From: a virus
Reading direction: 5' to 3' (one strand)
Length of the DNA stretch: 64,000 bases
Virus record (IMG/VR): IMGVR_UViG_3300021364_000015
Coordinates: 4,531 to 68,530 of that record
Part shown: in pieces, positions 34,107 to 54,399 of the stretch
How the letters are laid out: each line of letters opens with the position of its first letter
How positions within the stretch are numbered: the stretch's first letter is position 1
Translations under genes and position numbers: made by a program
Notes under the pieces: model-generated
The model's database searches: none
The model's input: only the letters and a program-made list of their open reading frames with translations
What the model was told of the DNA's origin: nothing

Positions 34107-35444
34107 TTGTCTAGGAGACAAGCAAATATGTCCTCACAGAACCCGGACTGGGAAAAAATCAAAGAGTATTTAGAGCCTAAGCGGTCTGACTACTGGGTCG
34201 AAGAACCGTCCCTAACTCAAAAAGTTTTCCTACGGTCGGAAGGTCAAGAAGTCATGTTCGGCGGCGCTGCTGGCGGAGGTAAGTCTTCGGCGCTTATCAT
34301 GGCTGCTTTGCAGTATGTGGATATTCCAAACTACAGTGCTATTCTCTTCCGTCGAACATACGCCGACCTTGCCCTCCCCGGCGCTCTCATGGACCGCTTC
34401 CGAGAATGGATTATGCAGTTTGACGATGTTCATTGGAACGCAAACCAATACACTGCAACATTCCCCTCCGGTGCCAGAATCACATTCGGTTATCTGAATA
34501 ACGTAAATGACTATCTCCGTTACAAAGGTTCGGAATTTCAGTTCATCGGCATGGATGAGGTTACCGAGATTAGAGAGTCTGACTACAGATACATGTTCTC
34601 CCGGCTTCGTCGTCCTGCGTCTGGCCCTCTATCGAAAGTTCCCCTAAGGATGCGGTGCGCTACCAACCCTGCACCTAACTGGGTCCGTCAAAGATTCTTA
34701 GTTGAAGGTGCAGATAATGGGAGAATCTTCATTCCTTCAATGCTTACAGACAACCCCGGAATTGATCCCACATCATACCGTGCCATGCTTTCGGAACTTG
34801 ACCCAATCGAACGTAAACGCTTAGAGTTCGGTGACTGGTGGGCTACCACCCTTGGCTCCATGTTCGATAGAAACAACTTTGAAATTATCGAACCTAGTGA
34901 AGTACCTGAACTCAGTAAAGATACAACCGTAGTGAGGTTCTGGGACTTGGCCGGAACGGAACCCTCAAACTCTAATCCCGATCCTGACTGGACAGTTGGT
35001 TGTTTGGGTGCTTTCGATAACGGTATATTTTATATTCTAGACGTTCGCCGCATAAGAGCAAAGGGAGAAAAGGTCGAACGGTTTGTTAAAGAAACTGCTG
35101 AAGAAGATGGTGCCGAAATAATGATTCAGATGGAACAAGAACCCGGATCGGCAGGTAAAAACCTAATTGACCAATACGCAAGATATGTTCTTCCGGGTTA
35201 CAACTTTTCTGGGCAGAGAGCAACTGGCGATAAAGTGACTAGAGCAAAGCCTTTTGCCGCAGCCGTGGCTAACGGAAATGTTAAACTAATTAGAGCAGCA
35301 TGGAACACAGACTTCATTGACGAAGTATCGTCATTCCCAGAAGCGAGAGTTCACGACGACCAAGTTGATGCTGCTACCCATGCATTCAACCTTTGTGCAG
35401 GACTAGGTATGGGAATCAGACGTAAAATCGAAATCATCATTTGA
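34107..35444 (+). CDS. Terminase large subunit (likely start 34128)
   Basis: Walker A GGAAGGGKS, Walker B FIGMDE, 'ATNP', nuclease 'WDLA...DWTV', 'HDDQVDA'. Confidence 0.95.
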   Translation: MSRRQANMSSQNPDWEKIKEYLEPKRSDYWVEEPSLTQKVFLRSEGQEVMFGGAAGGGKSSALIMAALQYVDIPNYSAILFRRTYADLALPGALMDRFREWIMQFDDVHWNANQYTATFPSGARITFGYLNNVNDYLRYKGSEFQFIGMDEVTEIRESDYRYMFSRLRRPASGPLSKVPLRMRCATNPAPNWVRQRFLVEGADNGRIFIPSMLTDNPGIDPTSYRAMLSELDPIERKRLEFGDWWATTLGSMFDRNNFEIIEPSEVPELSKDTTVVRFWDLAGTEPSNSNPDPDWTVGCLGAFDNGIFYILDVRRIRAKGEKVERFVKETAEEDGAEIMIQMEQEPGSAGKNLIDQYARYVLPGYNFSGQRATGDKVTRAKPFAAAVANGNVKLIRAAWNTDFIDEVSSFPEARVHDDQVDAATHAFNLCAGLGMGIRRKIEIII

Positions 35445-46845: not shown

Positions 46846-47238
46846 TCATTCTTCCGTCTGGTTCAACAGTTGATATAGAGAGTAGTCAATGTTCAACTCT
46901 AGCGGTTCACGCACAGAAGATATTGCTTCTTCCGAAACCATCGTCAGTTTCTCCGAAAACAAACGAATCGCATGTTGCTTCACAGCATCTGTCATTTCTT
47001 CTTCCGACGCATTGTCACCGAGTATTGTTGTTAGGCCATCAACAATGAAGTTGTCTATCTCCCGGTTCAAGTACCTATCAGATACAGCAATAGTTAAATT
47101 ATTAGCAGTCCACGATATCACAGAATAATCTTTACCATCAATACCCGTGTCTGGAGCATTAACGAAAGTAATTTTGATATCACCTCGTTGTAAAACCGCT
47201 AATACGTCAGGGTCAAAGTCATCATACTCGTTCCGCAA
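46846..47238 (-). CDS. Hypothetical protein
   Basis: Overlaps the whiB stop. Confidence 0.55.
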   Translation of the reverse strand: MRNEYDDFDPDVLAVLQRGDIKITFVNAPDTGIDGKDYSVISWTANNLTIAVSDRYLNREIDNFIVDGLTTILGDNASEEEMTDAVKQHAIRLFSEKLTMVSEEAISSVREPLELNIDYSLYQLLNQTEE

Positions 47239-47470
47239 GATCAGAACCTTCCAATAATCTAACTAAGTCAGGCCCAGTGTTTCCTCCCCAAACCCCAACA
47301 GTCACCCCGTTGCGTAAAGCAAACTGTAGGCAGTCTTCCCGATGAGTGCAAATATTATTGCATATGGAAATAGCCATCTTGCGCCTAGACGGTTTAGAAG
47401 AAAAGAACAACCTATCTTCTCCGACGCACGGGGCGTCCTGAAACCAAACGGGTGCGTCTACATTGAACAT
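47222..47470 (-). CDS. whiB: WhiB-family Fe-S transcription factor
   Basis: 'W...APC......FF', 'A..IC...C..RE.C...AL.......GVWGG'. Confidence 0.9.
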   Translation of the reverse strand: MFNVDAPVWFQDAPCVGEDRLFFSSKPSRRKMAISICNNICTHREDCLQFALRNGVTVGVWGGNTGPDLVRLLEGSDLAERV

Positions 47471-47535
47471 TGTAATTTCTCCATGATAAGCGTATTGTAT
47501 ATAAACGCTGTCAAGCGATCAAGTCAAAAGTGGAC

Positions 47536-47564
47536 TTGACAGCCCCCGCCCATCCGAGTACCCT
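47536..47564 (+). promoter_or_regulatory. SigA-type promoter upstream of candidate ncRNA
   Basis: TTGACA-17-TACCCT. Confidence 0.6.
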
Positions 47565-47570
47565 ATGAGC

Positions 47571-47996
47571 AAACTACAAGAGGAGCAAACTACCACAAGA
47601 CTGAATCCGGGGAATCCCGATGACATAAACGTTCACTGAAGGACCGGTGGGTTACACTCGTTACGCAACTGGTACTTACACGACAAAGAGGGCACGCCTG
47701 CCCAAAGAGGAACGATTTGGATCACACGATACACTGGACACACATCCTTGACGGGATGCCAGTCACTGCACGTAGAGCATCAAGCCTTGAGGAACAGGTT
47801 CGGAACAGGCAACAGCCCATGCGGTTCCGGCACACGGGCAACTAGAGCCATATCTAGGGAGAGTGGGCATCGCTGAAAAAATAGGCGGTGTTTGGGGTCC
47901 ATGAAGTGAACAGCCTTGAATAAACCAATTGGGTTCGTCCCAGCCTCTCGTGCGTTAGCGTCAACTACCACACGAAAGGGTAGGTGTGCTATGTCA
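47571..47996 (+). ncRNA. Candidate large structured non-coding RNA (family not recognised)
   Basis: No credible ORF; long-range pairings TGACATA/TATGTCA, GTTCACT/AGTGAAC, GGACC/GGTCC enclosing several hairpins. Confidence 0.55.
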
Positions 47997-48016
47997 AAAA
48001 CAGGTAAAATAACGGC

Positions 48017-48550
48017 ATGTACGAAAACATTAAACTGGAATGGAACGCCCACAATCTACAGCCCCTAAAAGGAAAGCCCGTCATGGAAGTCCTGCTTCGG
48101 GGGATAGAATTCTTAGATGAGTACTGGCTATCAGCCGGAACACTGCTTGGGCTAGAGCGGGACAACGGATTCATCCCGCACGACACCGACTTAGACCTTG
48201 CTGTACTAGGCTATTGGGACAGAGCACGGTTACCCGACGACGAGTTCTTTGCTGGAAGAGTAGTAAGCGACGGGGATAGGCCCATGCAAGCGGCTTACGT
48301 TCACAAAGAAACCCACATCATATTCGACGTTCTACACTGGTGGCCTCACCCCACGAACGATGAACTTCTAATCAACATAAAAGAAGATGGTCATTTGATC
48401 AGACCAAAACACCTAGTCTCGCCACTATCGACAAAAACTTATCTAGGTCACGACTTTAGCGTTCCCAACAATATTGATGGTTACCTCACCGACTGGTACG
48501 ACACATGGCGTATTCCGCAACCGGGAGGTAAAACAACGTGGCTAAAGTAG
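48017..48550 (+). CDS. LicD-family nucleotidyl/phosphotransferase
   Basis: 'YWLSAGTLLG..R..GFIPHDTDLDL', 'VPNN...YL...Y..W..P'. Confidence 0.88.
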   Translation: MYENIKLEWNAHNLQPLKGKPVMEVLLRGIEFLDEYWLSAGTLLGLERDNGFIPHDTDLDLAVLGYWDRARLPDDEFFAGRVVSDGDRPMQAAYVHKETHIIFDVLHWWPHPTNDELLINIKEDGHLIRPKHLVSPLSTKTYLGHDFSVPNNIDGYLTDWYDTWRIPQPGGKTTWLK

Positions 48551-48957
48551 CGCTGACTGCGGCAATCATGGACTTGTGCCACGAGGGCCACATAAACCTT
48601 TTGCAGAACATGCGAGCAAGCGCCGATGTGGTAGTTGTGGTCTTGCACTCTGATGAGTCCTGCTGGCGCATTAAAGGAAAAATACCTATCCAATCGCTTG
48701 AGCAGAGAATTAACAATCTAAAGATAACAGGATTGGTAGATGAGGTACTAGTTACACACACGGACGACCCCGGAGTAACGTTTAAGAAGGCGCACAGTCA
48801 TTACCCTAATCACGACTTCATATTCATAAGAGGGAATGACAATTACGAATTTCCGGGGAAGGCTACTATTATCGACTTAGATATGCCGATCAAGTACACT
48901 GCGTACACAGAAGGTGTCAGCAGTACCCAAATAAGGAACGACCTACTGTGCGATTAA
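48538..48957 (+). CDS. Cytidylyltransferase (TagD/GCT-like)
   Basis: 'DLCHEGHINLL', 'K..PI..LEQR', 'YTEGVSSTQIR'. Confidence 0.88.
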   Translation: MAKVALTAAIMDLCHEGHINLLQNMRASADVVVVVLHSDESCWRIKGKIPIQSLEQRINNLKITGLVDEVLVTHTDDPGVTFKKAHSHYPNHDFIFIRGNDNYEFPGKATIIDLDMPIKYTAYTEGVSSTQIRNDLLCD

Positions 48958-49280
48958 TATGGCTTCTCGCCGCACACCATTTTGCAGACGTGGCACTCCA
49001 ACCCGACTGGCTGATAAAACTTAAATCAAAAAGACTGTTCGCAATCTTTGAACATGTTATGGTCTACACGGGAGTTATATGTGCGACAATATACTGGCTA
49101 GGGGGAACTGTCACCCCTTGGTTGTTTGCGTATTTTGCTGTGGGGCACTGGCTTACAGATGCATTCTTTTATCAGTATCTGCCTTGGAAAACCGGAAAAC
49201 CCAAACCGTACTGGCACGTGTACCCAGACCAAGCCTTACACTACTTGCAGATAGTTATTTACCTTACACTAATCGCTTAA
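48948..49280 (+). CDS. DUF3307-like membrane protein
   Basis: 'LAAHHFAD..LQ', 'H...D', 'DQALH'. Confidence 0.75.
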   Translation: MRLIWLLAAHHFADVALQPDWLIKLKSKRLFAIFEHVMVYTGVICATIYWLGGTVTPWLFAYFAVGHWLTDAFFYQYLPWKTGKPKPYWHVYPDQALHYLQIVIYLTLIA

Positions 49281-49629
49281 CTTGTTGAGTATCTAAAAAC
49301 ACAGTTGCTGTTCCGTTAACAAGTTCCACTTGATCCATAGGGACTCCGACTCTAGAAGCAATCGCCGCACGTATCCGAATATCTTCCATAGGGTCGTAAG
49401 AGTCTAAGAAGTCACGATCCCCTCTATCTTCAGACAAAACTTCCATAAGAGGAACTGGAGCAGGCGGATCGACACAAGTCTTGCAGCAGAGACGGTCTTC
49501 GTTGATCTTAGGTTTACGGGCACTATCCACAGCGTGCCCACACTCCAACTCAATGTGCCACTTAGTTTGTCCGTACTCACCCAAGCGAACTGCCTGAGTG
49601 ACCAACCGCTTCGGTCCACGTTTACTCAT
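49264..49629 (-). CDS. Hypothetical Zn-ribbon protein
   Basis: LECGH...CCKTC; leaderless TACGAT-6nt-ATG at 49629. Confidence 0.6.
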   Translation of the reverse strand: MSKRGPKRLVTQAVRLGEYGQTKWHIELECGHAVDSARKPKINEDRLCCKTCVDPPAPVPLMEVLSEDRGDRDFLDSYDPMEDIRIRAAIASRVGVPMDQVELVNGTATVFLDTQQVKRLV

Positions 49630-49650
49630 ACAGATATCGTACCAGCACCC

Positions 49651-49679
49651 TTGACTCAAGACCAGCGAAAGCATAGAAT
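49651..49679 (+). promoter_or_regulatory. recA promoter (leaderless)
   Basis: TTGACT-17-TAGAAT-6nt-ATG. Confidence 0.7.
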
Positions 49680-49685
49680 ACACTT

Positions 49686-51930: not shown

Positions 51931-54399
51931 TCAGCGAGACTGTCTTCTTCTAGAACTTTTACTTCCGCCACCAGAATCCCCACTTCCGCCACCACTGGGT
52001 CCTCCACCTCCACCAGAAGGGCCACCGCCTCCGCCGCCGCCCGCAGGACCGGCAGAGGTTGCAGCAGTTGCCACCGTAACGGCTGCGGCAGCAGCAACCA
52101 CAGTACGGCGAGTTTCGGTGTCCACGGTTGAGCCATCGGCCACATACTCGTTGTACGCTTCATCTTCAAAGATGTTAACGGAGTCCTCAAACTCTTCTTT
52201 AACTTCACCGTCAGCGTCGTTCAATGCGTCAACGAGAACTTTTTTACCGTCTTCTGGAATTTCATCAAAGTTGTCTTCAGAAACAAGTGCTTCAATTTCT
52301 TCGACGGTGACTTCACCGTCAACTACATCCAAGAAGTCTTCAGCGAGTTCTTCGTCCAAGGCATCAAGTTCTTCAACAACTTTTTCTTCAGCGGCGTCAA
52401 CTTCGGACAACTCCACACCCTCAATATCAAGACCAAGGCTGTTTAGTTCCAGCGCTAATTCTTGTTCTTCTTCCTCAACGTCAAACTCTTCAAAGAACTC
52501 GTCAACGGTTAACGCTTCGCCTGTATCTTCGTCAACAAACTCAAACTCAATTTCCTCACCATCTACGGTAACGATCTCTGGTTCAGGCTCCGGCTCAGGT
52601 TCCGGTTCCGGGGGAAGAGTTGTCGTTGTCGTCGTTGGAGGCAACGTTGATGTGGTGGTTGTCGTGGTAGTGCTTGTAGTTGTAGTGCTTGTCGATGTAG
52701 TCGTAGTCGGGGTTACCGTAGTCGTCGTAGGCGGTACGGTTGTCGTTGTCGTTGATGGCGGTGCCTCCGTCGTTGTAGTTGTAGGCGCTACCGTCGTCGT
52801 AGTTGTAGGCGGCAACGTCGTTGTTGTCGTTACAGGTATTGTACTAGTTGTTGTTGTTGTCGGAGGCAAGGTCGTAGTAGTTGGAGGTAACGTTGTAGTA
52901 GTTGTTGTTGGTGGAACGGTCGTCGTCGTTGTGGTCGGCGGAACGGTCGTCGTGGTCGTTGGTGGAACGGTCGTCGTGGTCGGAGGGGTAGGCTCCTCTA
53001 CAGTCAGCGTCACTTGGGTAGACCATCCAGAATAGACACCTAGAGTGTCATTGTCGGCACGCACATCAAAGACGTATTCTTCTCCGAGTCCTCCGGTGCC
53101 TTCAAACAAGTCGTAAGACAGAGTATATTCGGTAGTGAGAGCATTTTCGTCACCCACATTTCCAGTAGCGACACCCCATCCAGCGTCGGGGGGTATACTA
53201 AAAGAGATGGCGTAGCGTTCGGGATCGACATTTCCGGTATTTGGCTCATCCCAATCCAAGAAAACGCCGTTAGCGGTCAACTCGCCGGTAAGGTTCATCG
53301 GCGGGCCAAGTGTCTGCGGAACGGTAGTCGTTGTGGTAGTGGTCGGTGGAACCGTTGTGGTTGTCGAAGTCGTCGTTGTGGTCGTCGTTGTGGTCGTCGT
53401 TGTGGTTGCAGGTGTAGCCCAAGTCCAAGTGTTTTGAACAAAACCACAAAGTGTAGAAGAAGTCAAACCTTGACATGTGTCCCACGAAGCGTTAGACGAC
53501 CAGCCATTCGGTGCAGAGTTGCTGTTGATGGAGTTGAACTGAGGATTAGTGAGCAGGTTGGTGAGGTCTGTCCATTCGGTGCTCCCATCAAGTTTTGCTT
53601 TGAAAGCGACTTCTTTGATTTCGGTTCCGTAGTTCCCTCCCGAACCTTCGCCATCTTTTGCCCAGATACGAATCTTAACTGTGTCCCACGATGTTGAATC
53701 TTGCACATTCGTAGAGGTAGACGCTGAGAACCAAAAGGAAGGAACCTCAACCCAAGATGTTGGAGCAGATGATGTCAAGTTGCCTTGCAGTAGGTTACCT
53801 GCCGAGTCGTAAGCGGCATACTGGGTCGCCACGTAATCGTTAACATCGTCGGACCGTTTAACAAGAGGGGTCACAACAATTGAATCAATCTCTCCCGCAT
53901 ACGAAGAAACGTCAATTGTTTGCTCAATGTATGCGGGGGTGTAAGAGAATCTGACCCCGTTGTAGGTGCTGAAGTTTGTTGCAAGCGTCAGGTCAGTGAC
54001 GAGTGCGTATTCACCATTTTCGTAACCCGGACCAACCTGACCGGGGTAGTAGCCCGCCCTAAGGCGGTAAACGCCTGCATCCAGCGTGGTGTCAATCTTT
54101 GCTGATACACACTGGTCTTGAGCGTTGTGGTTGCCGTCATCATTTCTGGTAATCATCGTGCCTGACAGGTCGTACAACCACAAGTACGGGTCAACCGTTA
54201 CCTCATTACATGACTGATTGCTGTTGCCGTAGATAACGACATGGGTAGTGTCCTGCGAAACTTCAAAATACCAGTCAGATTCTTCAGTAACTGTGTACGA
54301 AGCGGCGGCTGCTGGGACAGGAGCAAACCACGCTAGTGCAAAAACCCACACAAGCGCTGCTTTAGCCATTCTCTTGTAGGTTCTGCCCTTGCGCAGCAT
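51931..54399 (-). CDS. Secreted/surface protein: signal peptide, PPC-like and sugar-binding-like domains, Fn3, mucin-like Thr/Pro tract, acidic region
   Basis: AxA-type signal peptide; 'DPYLWLYD.SG..I..NDDG'; 'IWAKDGEGSGGNYG'; Fn3 'PPMNL...LDWDEP...YVFDVRA.N'; (PPTTTTT)n. Confidence 0.75.
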   Translation of the reverse strand: MLRKGRTYKRMAKAALVWVFALAWFAPVPAAAASYTVTEESDWYFEVSQDTTHVVIYGNSNQSCNEVTVDPYLWLYDLSGTMITRNDDGNHNAQDQCVSAKIDTTLDAGVYRLRAGYYPGQVGPGYENGEYALVTDLTLATNFSTYNGVRFSYTPAYIEQTIDVSSYAGEIDSIVVTPLVKRSDDVNDYVATQYAAYDSAGNLLQGNLTSSAPTSWVEVPSFWFSASTSTNVQDSTSWDTVKIRIWAKDGEGSGGNYGTEIKEVAFKAKLDGSTEWTDLTNLLTNPQFNSINSNSAPNGWSSNASWDTCQGLTSSTLCGFVQNTWTWATPATTTTTTTTTTTTTSTTTTVPPTTTTTTTVPQTLGPPMNLTGELTANGVFLDWDEPNTGNVDPERYAISFSIPPDAGWGVATGNVGDENALTTEYTLSYDLFEGTGGLGEEYVFDVRADNDTLGVYSGWSTQVTLTVEEPTPPTTTTVPPTTTTTVPPTTTTTTVPPTTTTTTLPPTTTTLPPTTTTTSTIPVTTTTTLPPTTTTTVAPTTTTTEAPPSTTTTTVPPTTTTVTPTTTTSTSTTTTSTTTTTTTSTLPPTTTTTTLPPEPEPEPEPEPEIVTVDGEEIEFEFVDEDTGEALTVDEFFEEFDVEEEEQELALELNSLGLDIEGVELSEVDAAEEKVVEELDALDEELAEDFLDVVDGEVTVEEIEALVSEDNFDEIPEDGKKVLVDALNDADGEVKEEFEDSVNIFEDEAYNEYVADGSTVDTETRRTVVAAAAAVTVATAATSAGPAGGGGGGGPSGGGGGPSGGGSGDSGGGSKSSRRRQSR
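52590..53000 (-). repeat. Low-complexity Thr/Pro-coding repeat
   Basis: Degenerate gtc/gtt/gtg triplet runs encoding PPTTTTTV units and PEPEPE. Confidence 0.85.

What the first reader, a model, noticed from the sequence alone, without database searches (positions are those of the whole stretch)
47536..47996. Candidate novel ~400-nt structured non-coding RNA divergent from whiB
Seen: the largest internal gene-free gap of this dense window has its own promoter (TTGACA-17-TACCCT) and a 5' direct repeat GAGCAAACTAC x2 (47567, 47583). Nested long-range helices are TGACATA 47621/TATGTCA 47990, GTTCACT 47631/AGTGAAC 47905 and GGACC 47641/GGTCC 47896. They enclose hairpins GGGCA/TGCCC, ACTGG-CATCC/GGATG-CCAGT, GCCC/GGGC, CTAGA/TCTAG, GCATCGC/GCGGTGT, TGGG/CCCA and CTACC/GGTAG, joined by A-rich linkers. 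I see no tmRNA, RNase P, tRNA or group I/II intron hallmark. Inferred: an undescribed large phage RNA (ribozyme-like, scaffold or RNA-polymerase-binding), in the spirit of GOLLD/ROOL/Ms1-type RNAs.
Basis: partly seen in the sequence, partly recalled or inferred. Interest (0 to 1): 0.8.

Follow-up and report, generated by a model that had tools for sequence, protein, structure and literature searches.

The report
New large folded RNA, marine phages
The gene-free stretch beside whiB is a separately promoted gene for an intricately folded non-coding RNA of about 420 bases, kept in one lineage of uncultured marine phages, matching no catalogued RNA family, and with a job still unknown.

Summary
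The gap 47471-48016 holds a real RNA gene on the + strand. A promoter (TTGACA-17-TACCCT) recurs in 49 of 50 distinct relatives. The core is the best-kept DNA at the locus: 78-95% identity against 71-85% for recA. On 27 sequences, 49 of 100 proposed pairs change on both sides and stay paired; slid controls give 8-11.

Two long-range contacts lock the fold. One is CACTC 47655-59 with GAGTG 47861-65. The other is a 6-base loop-loop kiss, TTGACG 47748-53 with CGTCAA 47959-64, seen in at least nine complementary versions.

No Rfam family matches. No ORF is kept across the family. No copy was found in cellular genomes.

Folding energy alone is at chance.

Genes downstream usually carry their own leaderless promoter. 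A tRNA-Arg follows the RNA in 7 of 50 loci. Both point to a free-standing stable RNA, not a leader.

Function is unknown and no transcript evidence was obtained. This scan had already found the same family on sister genomes.

The parts
47536..47564 (+). Promoter of the RNA gene: -35 TTGACA 47536-41, 17-nt spacer, -10 TACCCT 47559-64
   Evidence: Sequence. TTGACN-17/18-TAnnnT is present in 49 of 50 distinct 5' regions of relatives: TTGACA in 39, spacer of 17 in 45. The start near 47571 is inferred from the -10 position, not measured.
47567..47607 (+). C/A-rich 5' leader with direct repeat GAGCAAACTAC (47567-77, 47583-93) and AGGAG (47582-86)
   Evidence: Repeat confirmed. AGGAG is present in 50 of 50 distinct 5' regions, mostly 13-18 nt after the -10. 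No start codon follows at Shine-Dalgarno distance. A role as a 5' stabiliser that binds the ribosome is inference only.
47608..47619 (+). Hairpin P0 (CGGG/CCCG)
   Evidence: 3 of 4 pairs change on both sides; 100% of cells paired.
47620..47628 (+). Invariant joiner ATGACATAA
   Evidence: Present in 49 of 50 distinct 5' regions and at least 96% conserved in 53 sequences. Its proposed partner TATGTCA is not supported.
47631..47645 (+). 5' strands of closing helices P1 (47631-37) and P2 (47641-45)
   Evidence: They pair with 47905-11 and 47896-900. 4 of 7 and 5 of 5 pairs change on both sides.
47655..47659 (+). 5' strand (CACTC) of long-range helix PK-A
   Evidence: Pairs with GAGTG 47861-65. 100% of cells paired and 2 of 5 pairs compensatory, for example CACUC/GAGUG against GACAC/GUGUC.
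47674..47689 (+). Variable linker 1
   Evidence: Length and sequence vary. L040 carries a 36-nt duplication of the preceding element here.
47696..47799 (+). Long arm: P3 GCCTG/CAGGT, P4 GAGG/CCTT, P5, P6 ACTGG/CCAGT and P6a CATCC/GGATG, with 6-nt loop TTGACG 47748-53
   Evidence: P3 has 3 of 5 pairs compensatory, P6 4 of 5 and P6a 5 of 5.
47748..47753 (+). Kissing loop, 5' partner (TTGACG)
   Evidence: Complementary to CGTCAA 47959-64. 4 of 4 tested pairs are compensatory. At least nine different complementary versions occur among 50 sequences.
47800..47830 (+). Hairpin P7 (TCGGAAC..GC / GC..GTTCCGG)
   Evidence: 3 of 9 pairs compensatory; 100% of cells paired.
47831..47865 (+). Invariant CACACGGGC, hairpin P8 (CTAGA/TCTAG) and GGGAG-AGTG, which carries the 3' strand of PK-A (47861-65)
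   Evidence: Part of this invariance comes from how sequences were retrieved: search patterns used these motifs. It also holds in the members found through a protein.
47866..47892 (+). Hairpin P9 (GGCATCGCT/AGGCGGTGT) with A-rich loop
   Evidence: 4 of 9 pairs compensatory. Many G-U pairs fix the strand as +.
47896..47911 (+). 3' strands of P2 and P1
47912..47941 (+). Variable linker 2 and small hairpin P10 (GGG/CCC)
   Evidence: 91% of cells paired, 1 of 3 pairs compensatory.
47944..47979 (+). 3' domain P11 (CCT-C-TCGTG ... CACGA-A-AGG), whose 6-nt loop CGTCAA 47959-64 is the 3' kissing partner
   Evidence: 5 of 13 pairs compensatory; loop partner.
47980..48016 (+). 3' tail (..TGTCAAAAAC) overlapping the promoter of the next gene: -10 TAAAAT 48005-10, 6 nt before the ATG at 48017
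   Evidence: TAnnnT lies 5-8 nt before the start codon in 23 of 37 co-directional downstream contexts, against 14 of 77 window ORFs. No intrinsic terminator was found. The exact 3' end of the RNA is unknown.

Best explanation
This is a free-standing gene for a structured non-coding RNA of about 420 nt, running from roughly 47571 to 47985-48000 on the + strand. It is one member of an RNA family confined to one lineage of large uncultured marine phages that carry actinobacterial-type genes.

Shown: (a) a conserved host-type promoter; (b) a fold of about 14 helices closed by P1/P2 and locked by two long-range contacts, PK-A and a 6-bp loop-loop kiss that docks the 3' domain on the tip of the long arm; (c) about 100 near-invariant bases outside the helices; (d) no conserved ORF; (e) neighbouring genes that change from phage to phage while the RNA stays.

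Inferred: host RNA polymerase makes it early. The invariant AGGAG near its 5' end may hold a ribosomal subunit and protect the RNA. It then acts in trans as a compact folded particle, presenting its invariant unpaired bases to a conserved partner. Most likely it binds or re-programmes a host macromolecule.

My odds: real independent structured RNA gene about 0.9; trans-acting particle rather than cis leader about 0.75; binder or decoy of a host component, as against RNA-only assembly or ribozyme, about 0.4.
For: Conservation: the gap core is 93-94% identical in five loci where the flanks are 73-81%. In 15 loci the RNA core (78-95%) equals or exceeds recA (71-85%) and every other neighbour.

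Independence from neighbours: loci L008-L010 lack the LicD cassette and L002-type loci lack whiB, yet both keep the RNA.

Fold: on A3, 22 of 83 pairs are compensatory against 0-5 in slid controls. On A5, 49 of 100 against 8-11, with 95.8% of cells paired and 0 of 500 shuffles reaching the observed values. The kiss has at least nine complementary versions.

Strand: pairs that are G-U in most sequences (for example columns 191:298, 203:286, 365:392 and 373:384) would be C-A mismatches on the other strand.

Promoter and AGGAG: 49 of 50 and 50 of 50.

Not coding: the 90-aa minus-strand ORF stays open in only 9 of 53 sequences. The 42-codon plus-strand ORF is intact in 21 of 53 and cut to 26 codons or fewer in 29.

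Free-standing: 14 of 51 distinct downstream contexts are a convergent gene. 23 of 37 co-directional genes have their own -10 box 5-8 nt before the ATG, and four recA contexts have a full TTGACT-N17-TAGAAT. A tRNA-Arg(TCT) lies 40-136 nt downstream on the same strand in 7 of 50 loci.

Not catalogued and not cellular.
Against: No transcript evidence: no RNA run was listed, which is not evidence either way. The minimum-free-energy z-score is at chance on both strands. No terminator was found and the 3' end is undefined. No partner protein or target is known. The only steadily adjacent small gene (49264-49683) has no family.

Cell counts count sequences, not independent events, and the sequences are related. 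R-scape was not available. Many family members were retrieved with DNA patterns taken from the RNA itself, which inflates the apparent invariance of those motifs. In 37 of 51 contexts a co-directional gene follows within 10-220 nt, so read-through and a cis role cannot be excluded.
Confidence: 0.8

Rival explanations
1. RNA-only homo-oligomer. The 6-bp loop-loop complementarity, and perhaps PK-A, join different copies of the RNA into a ring or cage, as in ROOL and GOLLD.
For: In ROOL and GOLLD, kissing loops first found by covariation proved to be bridges between chains. Both RNAs are phage-borne, often lie near tRNAs, and have a variable disordered linker (passages of PMC12286853). Here there are two fully complementary 6-nt loops on different domains, two variable linkers, and a tRNA next door in 7 of 50 loci.
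Against: Covariation cannot tell contacts within a chain from contacts between chains. A 20-nt flexible linker would allow the kiss within one molecule. No palindromic loop was seen that switches between palindromes. There is no similarity to ROOL or GOLLD models. The RNA is smaller.
Confidence: 0.2
2. Cis-acting leader of the rightward genes: a riboswitch, a processive antiterminator like HK022 put (recalled), or an mRNA stabiliser.
For: It lies directly after a strong promoter. A co-directional gene starts 10-220 nt after it in 37 of 51 contexts. No terminator lies between. The cassettes are mostly sugar or surface-modification genes.
Against: 14 of 51 contexts are convergent. The downstream genes are unrelated to one another: LicD, methyltransferase, GT2, recA. 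23 of 37 have their own -10 box placed for leaderless transcription, which leaves no 5' UTR to regulate. 420 nt with two long-range contacts is far beyond known leaders.
Confidence: 0.1
3. A new ribozyme, for example self-processing or acting on a host RNA.
For: The size, the compact pseudoknotted core and about 100 near-invariant unpaired bases resemble large ribozymes. It is more conserved than any neighbouring protein gene.
Against: There is no match to group I, group II, RNase P or small-ribozyme models. No flanking exons or obvious substrate are present. No conserved cleavage-site signature was identified.
Confidence: 0.12
4. A DNA-level element (replication origin, operator array) or a small protein gene, not an RNA.
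For: It lies at a divergent promoter region inside the recombination and replication module. There are direct repeats at the 5' end. A 42-codon ORF with a GAGGA box is intact in the close relatives.
Against: Compensatory changes that keep Watson-Crick and G-U pairing on one strand only are not expected for DNA sites. The ORFs break across the family.
Confidence: 0.03

Closest known systems
ROOL and GOLLD RNAs (large ornate RNAs of phages and prophages; cryo-EM in Kretsch et al. 2025, PMC12286853, passages read)
   Same: They are large, ORF-free and intricately folded, with pseudoknots and kissing loops supported by covariation. They are carried by phages, have variable linkers, sometimes sit beside tRNA genes, and have no known function.
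   Different: There is no sequence or model similarity: no Rfam hit among 4227 families. This RNA is smaller, about 420 nt, whereas many GOLLD members exceed 800 nt according to the paper. It comes from a different host range (marine phages with actinobacterial-type genes). Multimer formation is untested. This is an analogy, not membership.
phi29 packaging RNA (pRNA)
   Same: It is a phage-encoded structured RNA whose two loops are mutually complementary and covary.
   Different: pRNA is far smaller and sits in a packaging motor (recalled). It gave no Rfam match here. This RNA lies in the recombination and replication module, not next to packaging genes.
Candidate structured RNAs predicted from IMG/VR (Fremin et al. 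2023, PMC10690425; abstract and passages read)
   Same: That study used the same data source (IMG/VR) and the same covariation logic, so pieces of this RNA may be among its 8495 motifs.
   Different: Those motifs average 67 nt. The text does not mention whiB or Actinobacteria (0 occurrences). The motif lists are in supplements that I could not open.
Cis leaders of phage sugar-modification genes (manA and wcaG motifs of cyanophages; recalled) and HK022 put RNA (recalled)
   Same: They lie just after a promoter and upstream of surface or sugar genes in marine phages.
   Different: They gave no Rfam match. This RNA is several times larger. Downstream genes here have their own promoters, or are convergent.

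Membership tests
Any Rfam 15 family (including tmRNA, RNase P, 6S, group I/II introns, GOLLD, ROOL, pRNA, riboswitches) | Score at or above the family's gathering threshold | tested here: not met
   0 matches in the 64-kb window. In the gap at E up to 10 there were only caiA at 17.4 bits, RAGATH-33 at 15.1 and Chlorobi-RRM at 14.1, far below their thresholds. In 11 relatives' loci the only hits were 2 tRNAs.
tRNA / tmRNA | Cloverleaf or tRNA-like domain with tag ORF, as found by ARAGORN | tested here: not met
   0 genes in the window.
ROOL / GOLLD-type ornate phage RNA | Homology to the family model | tested here: not met
ROOL / GOLLD-type ornate phage RNA | Phage-borne, beside tRNA genes | tested here: inconclusive
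   It is phage-borne. A tRNA-Arg lies downstream in 7 of 50 loci scanned, and there is none in this window.
ROOL / GOLLD-type ornate phage RNA | Assembles into RNA-only multimers | not testable with these tools
   Needs native gel, mass photometry or cryo-EM.
Riboswitch or cis-regulatory leader | Lies in the 5' UTR of the gene it controls, with functionally related downstream genes | tested here: not met
   14 of 51 contexts are convergent. Downstream genes are unrelated to one another. 23 of 37 have their own -10 box 5-8 nt before the ATG.
Protein-coding gene | An ORF kept open across relatives | tested here: not met
   The minus-strand ORF is open in 9 of 53. The plus-strand 42-codon ORF is intact in 21 of 53 and has 26 codons or fewer in 29.
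Structured RNA (generic) | Compensatory base changes above controls | tested here: met
   22 of 83 pairs against 0-5. 49 of 100 pairs against 8-11, with 0 of 500 shuffles reaching the observed values.
Structured RNA (generic) | Folding energy below shuffled sequence | tested here: not met
   z = 0.06 and -0.02.
Structured RNA (generic) | Transcribed as a discrete RNA | not testable with these tools
   No RNA run was listed, so no reads could be laid.

The most novel reading that the evidence does not exclude
A third, unrelated class of phage RNA that builds an RNA-only quaternary structure. The two fully complementary 6-nt loops would join neighbouring copies head to tail into a ring or cage. 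It would be made early in infection of marine Actinomycetota and would enclose or scaffold a host component such as ribosomal subunits, which the invariant 5' AGGAG could recruit.
Probability: 0.2. Interest if true: 0.9.

Novelty: categorically new. Interest (0 to 1): 0.78.

Why it matters
Large bacterial and phage RNAs with ribozyme-grade architecture and no known function are rare; OLE, GOLLD, ROOL and raiA are the known examples. Each has opened new biochemistry, most recently RNA-only nanocages. This one comes from abundant marine phages whose hosts are uncultured. It is better conserved than recA at its locus. Its fold is well defined by comparative data, with about 14 helices and two long-range contacts.

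That makes it directly testable in vitro by synthesis, probing, oligomer state, cryo-EM and activity screens, without a cultured host. If it targets a host machine, it would reveal a new RNA-based take-over strategy in marine Actinomycetota.

Tried and rejected
Thermodynamic test: MFE z-scores were at chance on both strands, so folding energy is uninformative here.

Known RNA families: no Rfam hit at gathering scores. The relaxed scan gave only three junk hits. ARAGORN found no tRNA or tmRNA in the window.

Annotated phages (INPHARED): no blastn or megablast match for the gap or for 8 kb around it.

Expression: for window:46500-49000, kind rna, no RNA holder was listed.

Cellular homologues:
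- A degenerate 31-nt pattern found 0 matches in genome contigs.
- Covariance model R1 (P7-P9; it scores 127 bits on the window's own record) found nothing in 5 genomes reached through RecA loci.
- In 151 genomes of the same class it gave one match of 24.6 bits, E 0.005 per genome. About 0.8 such matches are expected by chance, so I treat it as chance.

More distant phages: 32 loci whose Rad52-like protein is 60% identical or less have a different gene order and no nhmmer hit. For five whole records of such phages (two at least 90% complete), BLAST gave only a 21-nt match at E 0.3, and R1 gave only a 13-bit partial match.

Coding: both candidate ORFs were rejected.

Partner protein: the small Cys-rich gene 49264-49683 has no Pfam family, and the protein atlas gave only hits under 0.9. 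This was not pursued further.

Terminator: none was found after the RNA in the window or in five cassette-less relatives.

k-turn reading of the P1/P2 internal loop: considered by eye and dropped, because the GA dinucleotides are not kept in L032-type sequences.

Literature:
- Searches were search listings.
- I read passages of PMC10690425, PMC12286853, PMC3861242 and PMC7771536.
- None describes this RNA.
- The supplements of PMC10690425, which list its motifs, were closed, so I cannot exclude that fragments of this RNA are listed there.

R-scape was not available. My helix scans are home-made and not corrected for phylogeny.

Full report
WHAT IS THERE. The window is bases 4531-68530 of a 68,530-base IMG/VR virus record estimated 46% complete. 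Between whiB (47222-47470, minus strand; PF02467) and a LicD-family gene (48017-48550, plus strand) lie 546 bases without a credible ORF. This is the largest gap between ORFs of 80 aa or more in the window. TTGACA (47536-41), a 17-nt spacer and TACCCT (47559-64) are present, as is the direct repeat GAGCAAACTAC at 47567 and 47583. The simple promoter scan does not list this site. It finds only the divergent minus-strand site that serves whiB.

FIRST TESTS. Rfam 15 (4227 families) gives no match at gathering scores in the whole window. At E up to 10 in the gap it gives three junk matches of 14-17 bits. ARAGORN finds no tRNA or tmRNA. The minimum free energy is no better than that of shuffled sequence on either strand (z = 0.06 and -0.02). 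Taken alone, the sequence gives no evidence of structure. The annotated phage collection holds nothing similar.

RELATIVES AND CONSERVATION.
- Searching IMG/VR with the flanking proteins gave nine loci.
- The gap core (47573-47980) is 93-94% identical in five of them, 87% in one and 82% in three. The flanking genes align at 73-81%.
- Loci L008-L010 lack the LicD/cytidylyltransferase/DUF3307 cassette (48017-49280) but keep the element. L002-type loci lack the whiB stretch and keep it too.
- DNA patterns from the core found 23, 30 and 33 IMG/VR contigs.
- A search with an alignment of the neighbouring Rad52-like protein, which does not depend on the RNA sequence, reported 460 relatives and kept 80 loci.
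- nhmmer found the element in 41 of those 80. Seven more are too short on that side. The other 32, with a Rad52-like protein 60% identical or less, have another gene order.
- A degenerate pattern found 50 metagenome contigs, several from ocean surveys, and all 50 are full-length members.
- Altogether 123 loci give 53 distinct full-length sequences, 65-98% identical to the window.
- In 15 loci the RNA core (78-95% nucleotide identity) equals or exceeds recA (71-85%) and every other neighbour.

THE FOLD.
- On 26 sequences (A3), RNAalifold proposed 83 pairs. 22 show changes on both sides with pairing kept, against 0-5 when the 3' partners are slid by 1-3 columns. 99.0% of cells are paired, and 0 of 500 shuffles reach the covariation score.
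- On 27 more diverse sequences (A5), a 100-pair structure with one pseudoknot gives 49 pairs changed on both sides, against 8-11 when slid. 95.8% of cells are paired, and 0 of 500 shuffles reach any measure.
- Helices in window coordinates: P0 47608-11/47616-19; P1 47631-37/47905-11; P2 47641-45/47896-900; P3 47696-700/47795-99; P4 47707-10/47785-88; P6 47733-37/47759-63; P6a 47743-47/47754-58; P7 47800-10/47821-30; P8 47842-46/47853-57; P9 47866-74/47884-92; P10 47931-33/47939-41; P11 47944-58/47965-79.
The first is CACTC 47655-59 with GAGTG 47861-65: 100% of cells paired, switching for example to GACAC/GUGUC.
- The second is a kiss between the whole 6-nt loop of P6a (TTGACG 47748-53) and the whole 6-nt loop of P11 (CGTCAA 47959-64). 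I read at least nine different complementary versions of it among 50 sequences, and 4 of 4 tested pairs are compensatory.
- Several pairs are G-U in most sequences. On the other strand, or in DNA, they would be mismatches, so the RNA is read from the + strand.
- About 176 of 473 positions are at least 96% conserved in the 53 sequences. The longest runs lie outside helices: ATGACATAA, CACGATA, CTGCACG, CTTGAG, CACACGGGC, TGAAAAAATAG and CCACACGA. Some of this invariance reflects the patterns used for retrieval, but it also holds in the protein-retrieved members.
Three are not: TGACATA/TATGTCA, GGGCA/TGCCC and CTACC/GGTAG, with 0 of 17 pairs compensatory and 58-84% of cells paired. GCCC/GGGC is undecided: 100% of cells paired, with only one-sided changes to G-U. 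It could be a third pseudoknot.

NOT A PROTEIN GENE. The 90-aa minus-strand ORF (47780-48052) keeps its frame open in only 9 of 53 family members. It is intact in 21 of 53, cut to 6-26 codons in 29, and has TTG, ATG or CTG as its first codon.

A FREE-STANDING GENE.
- TTGACN-17/18-TAnnnT is present in 49 of 50 distinct 5' regions, AGGAG in 50 of 50, and ATGACATAA in 49 of 50.
- Downstream there are 51 distinct contexts. In 14 the next gene is convergent and ends within about 15 nt of the RNA. In 37 it is co-directional and starts 10-220 nt later.
- Those genes differ. Here they are LicD with a cytidylyltransferase and DUF3307. Elsewhere they are a methyltransferase, polysaccharide deacetylase, PhyH dioxygenase and GT2; or a GT2, methyltransferase and 2OG-Fe oxygenase; or recA itself.
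- In 23 of the 37, a TAnnnT box ends 5-8 nt before the start codon; here it is TAAAAT 48005-10 with the ATG at 48017. The recA contexts show a full TTGACT-N17-TAGAAT. The same pattern occurs at 14 of 77 window ORFs. This placement fits leaderless mRNAs, which are common in Actinobacteria (established knowledge). It means the neighbours need not use the RNA as a leader.
- In two sub-lineages a tRNA-Arg(TCT) lies 40-136 nt after the RNA on the same strand, in 7 of 50 loci scanned. That is an arrangement typical of stable-RNA operons.
- No intrinsic terminator was found, so the 3' end is not fixed.

WHERE IT OCCURS.
- There is a single copy in its own record.
- It was not found by pattern in one genome each of 185,579 prokaryote species.
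- Model R1 found nothing in 5 genomes. In 151 genomes of one class it gave a single match at chance level.
- It was not found in five more distant phage records.
- The phage RecA is closest to RecA of Acidimicrobiales and other Actinomycetota, at 64-72% identity. Together with whiB, this points to an actinobacterial host, but that is inference.
- The surrounding module encodes a Rad52-like protein, RecA, thymidine kinase, SSB, a Toprim/AAA primase-helicase, ThyX and an SNF2 helicase. No gene with an RNA-specific domain was seen among those scanned.

HOW IT MOST LIKELY WORKS.
- Shown: the promoter, the fold, the invariant unpaired bases, and independence from neighbouring genes.
- Inferred: an early, abundant, stable RNA that acts in trans as a compact particle.
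- The invariant AGGAG lies a few bases from the inferred start and has no start codon behind it. It resembles the Shine-Dalgarno-like 5' stabilisers of Gram-positive mRNAs (recalled, not tested).
- Conservation above that of recA suggests a partner that itself hardly changes, namely a host machine.
- I put about 0.4 on binding or decoy of a host component, 0.2 on RNA-only self-assembly, 0.12 on catalysis and 0.1 on a cis role. The self-assembly reading has a precedent: kissing loops in ROOL and GOLLD first detected by covariation turned out to join different chains (PMC12286853, passages read).

COMPARISON AND NOVELTY. The RNA works most like the ornate phage RNAs ROOL and GOLLD, but it is a member of neither, and of no other Rfam family. 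Four searches and the passages read turned up no paper that describes it. This scan had already met the same family on sister genomes, and earlier follow-ups reached the same basic verdict. New here, as far as those notes show, are:
- the leaderless promoters of the downstream genes;
- the tRNA-Arg neighbour;
- the count of kissing-loop versions;
- the explicit rejection of three first-reader helices and of the 42-codon ORF;
- the negative searches of cellular genomes.

VERDICT. This is a real new class of large structured phage RNA. Its function is unknown. Interest 0.78.

Noticed in passing
window 48017-49280, and the same place in L017, L018 and others: A replaceable gene cassette sits right after the RNA. 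Here it is LicD, a cytidylyltransferase and DUF3307. Elsewhere it is a methyltransferase, polysaccharide deacetylase, PhyH and GT2; or a GT2, methyltransferase and 2OG-Fe oxygenase; or nothing. It looks like a hot spot for surface or sugar-modification genes.
   Followed up: partly
window 48005-48017, and 23 of 37 related contexts: A TAnnnT box ends 5-8 nt before the ATG of the gene after the RNA. recA in L070, L080, L144 and L174 has a full TTGACT-N17-TAGAAT. This suggests leaderless mRNAs in these phages.
   Followed up: partly
L085:2661-2734, L086, L153:494-567, L128, L166:3661-3734, L138:1148-1221, L143: A tRNA-Arg(TCT) lies 40-136 nt downstream of the RNA on the same strand in two divergent sub-lineages. 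None is present in this window.
   Followed up: partly
L040:5380-5904: One relative carries a 36-nt tandem duplication of the segment that holds the 5' strand of the long-range helix PK-A.
   Followed up: no
window 47588-47600 and 47963-47975: A 13-nt direct repeat (12 of 13 identical) links the 5' leader and the 3' domain just after the kissing loop. It is kept only in close relatives.
   Followed up: no
window 49264-49683 (-): A small Cys-rich basic protein with no family lies between the RNA or cassette and recA in most relatives. Its likely real start is the ATG at 49626. Pfam and the protein atlas gave nothing.
   Followed up: partly
L014, L016, L025, L029, L045: In one sub-lineage no whiB homologue was found. 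A 78-82-aa ORF on the other strand lies next to the RNA gene.
   Followed up: no
G003 and G004 (records of L112 and L120): Phages of about 137 kb, 100% and 92% complete, share the 170-aa/Rad52-like/exonuclease operon. There it follows a homologue of window 34107-35444, with no whiB homologue among the ORFs upstream of it. Neither BLAST nor model R1 found the RNA in these records.
   Followed up: partly
window 51931-54399 (-): An 822-aa ORF in the replication module has no Pfam family at E 0.001.
   Followed up: no
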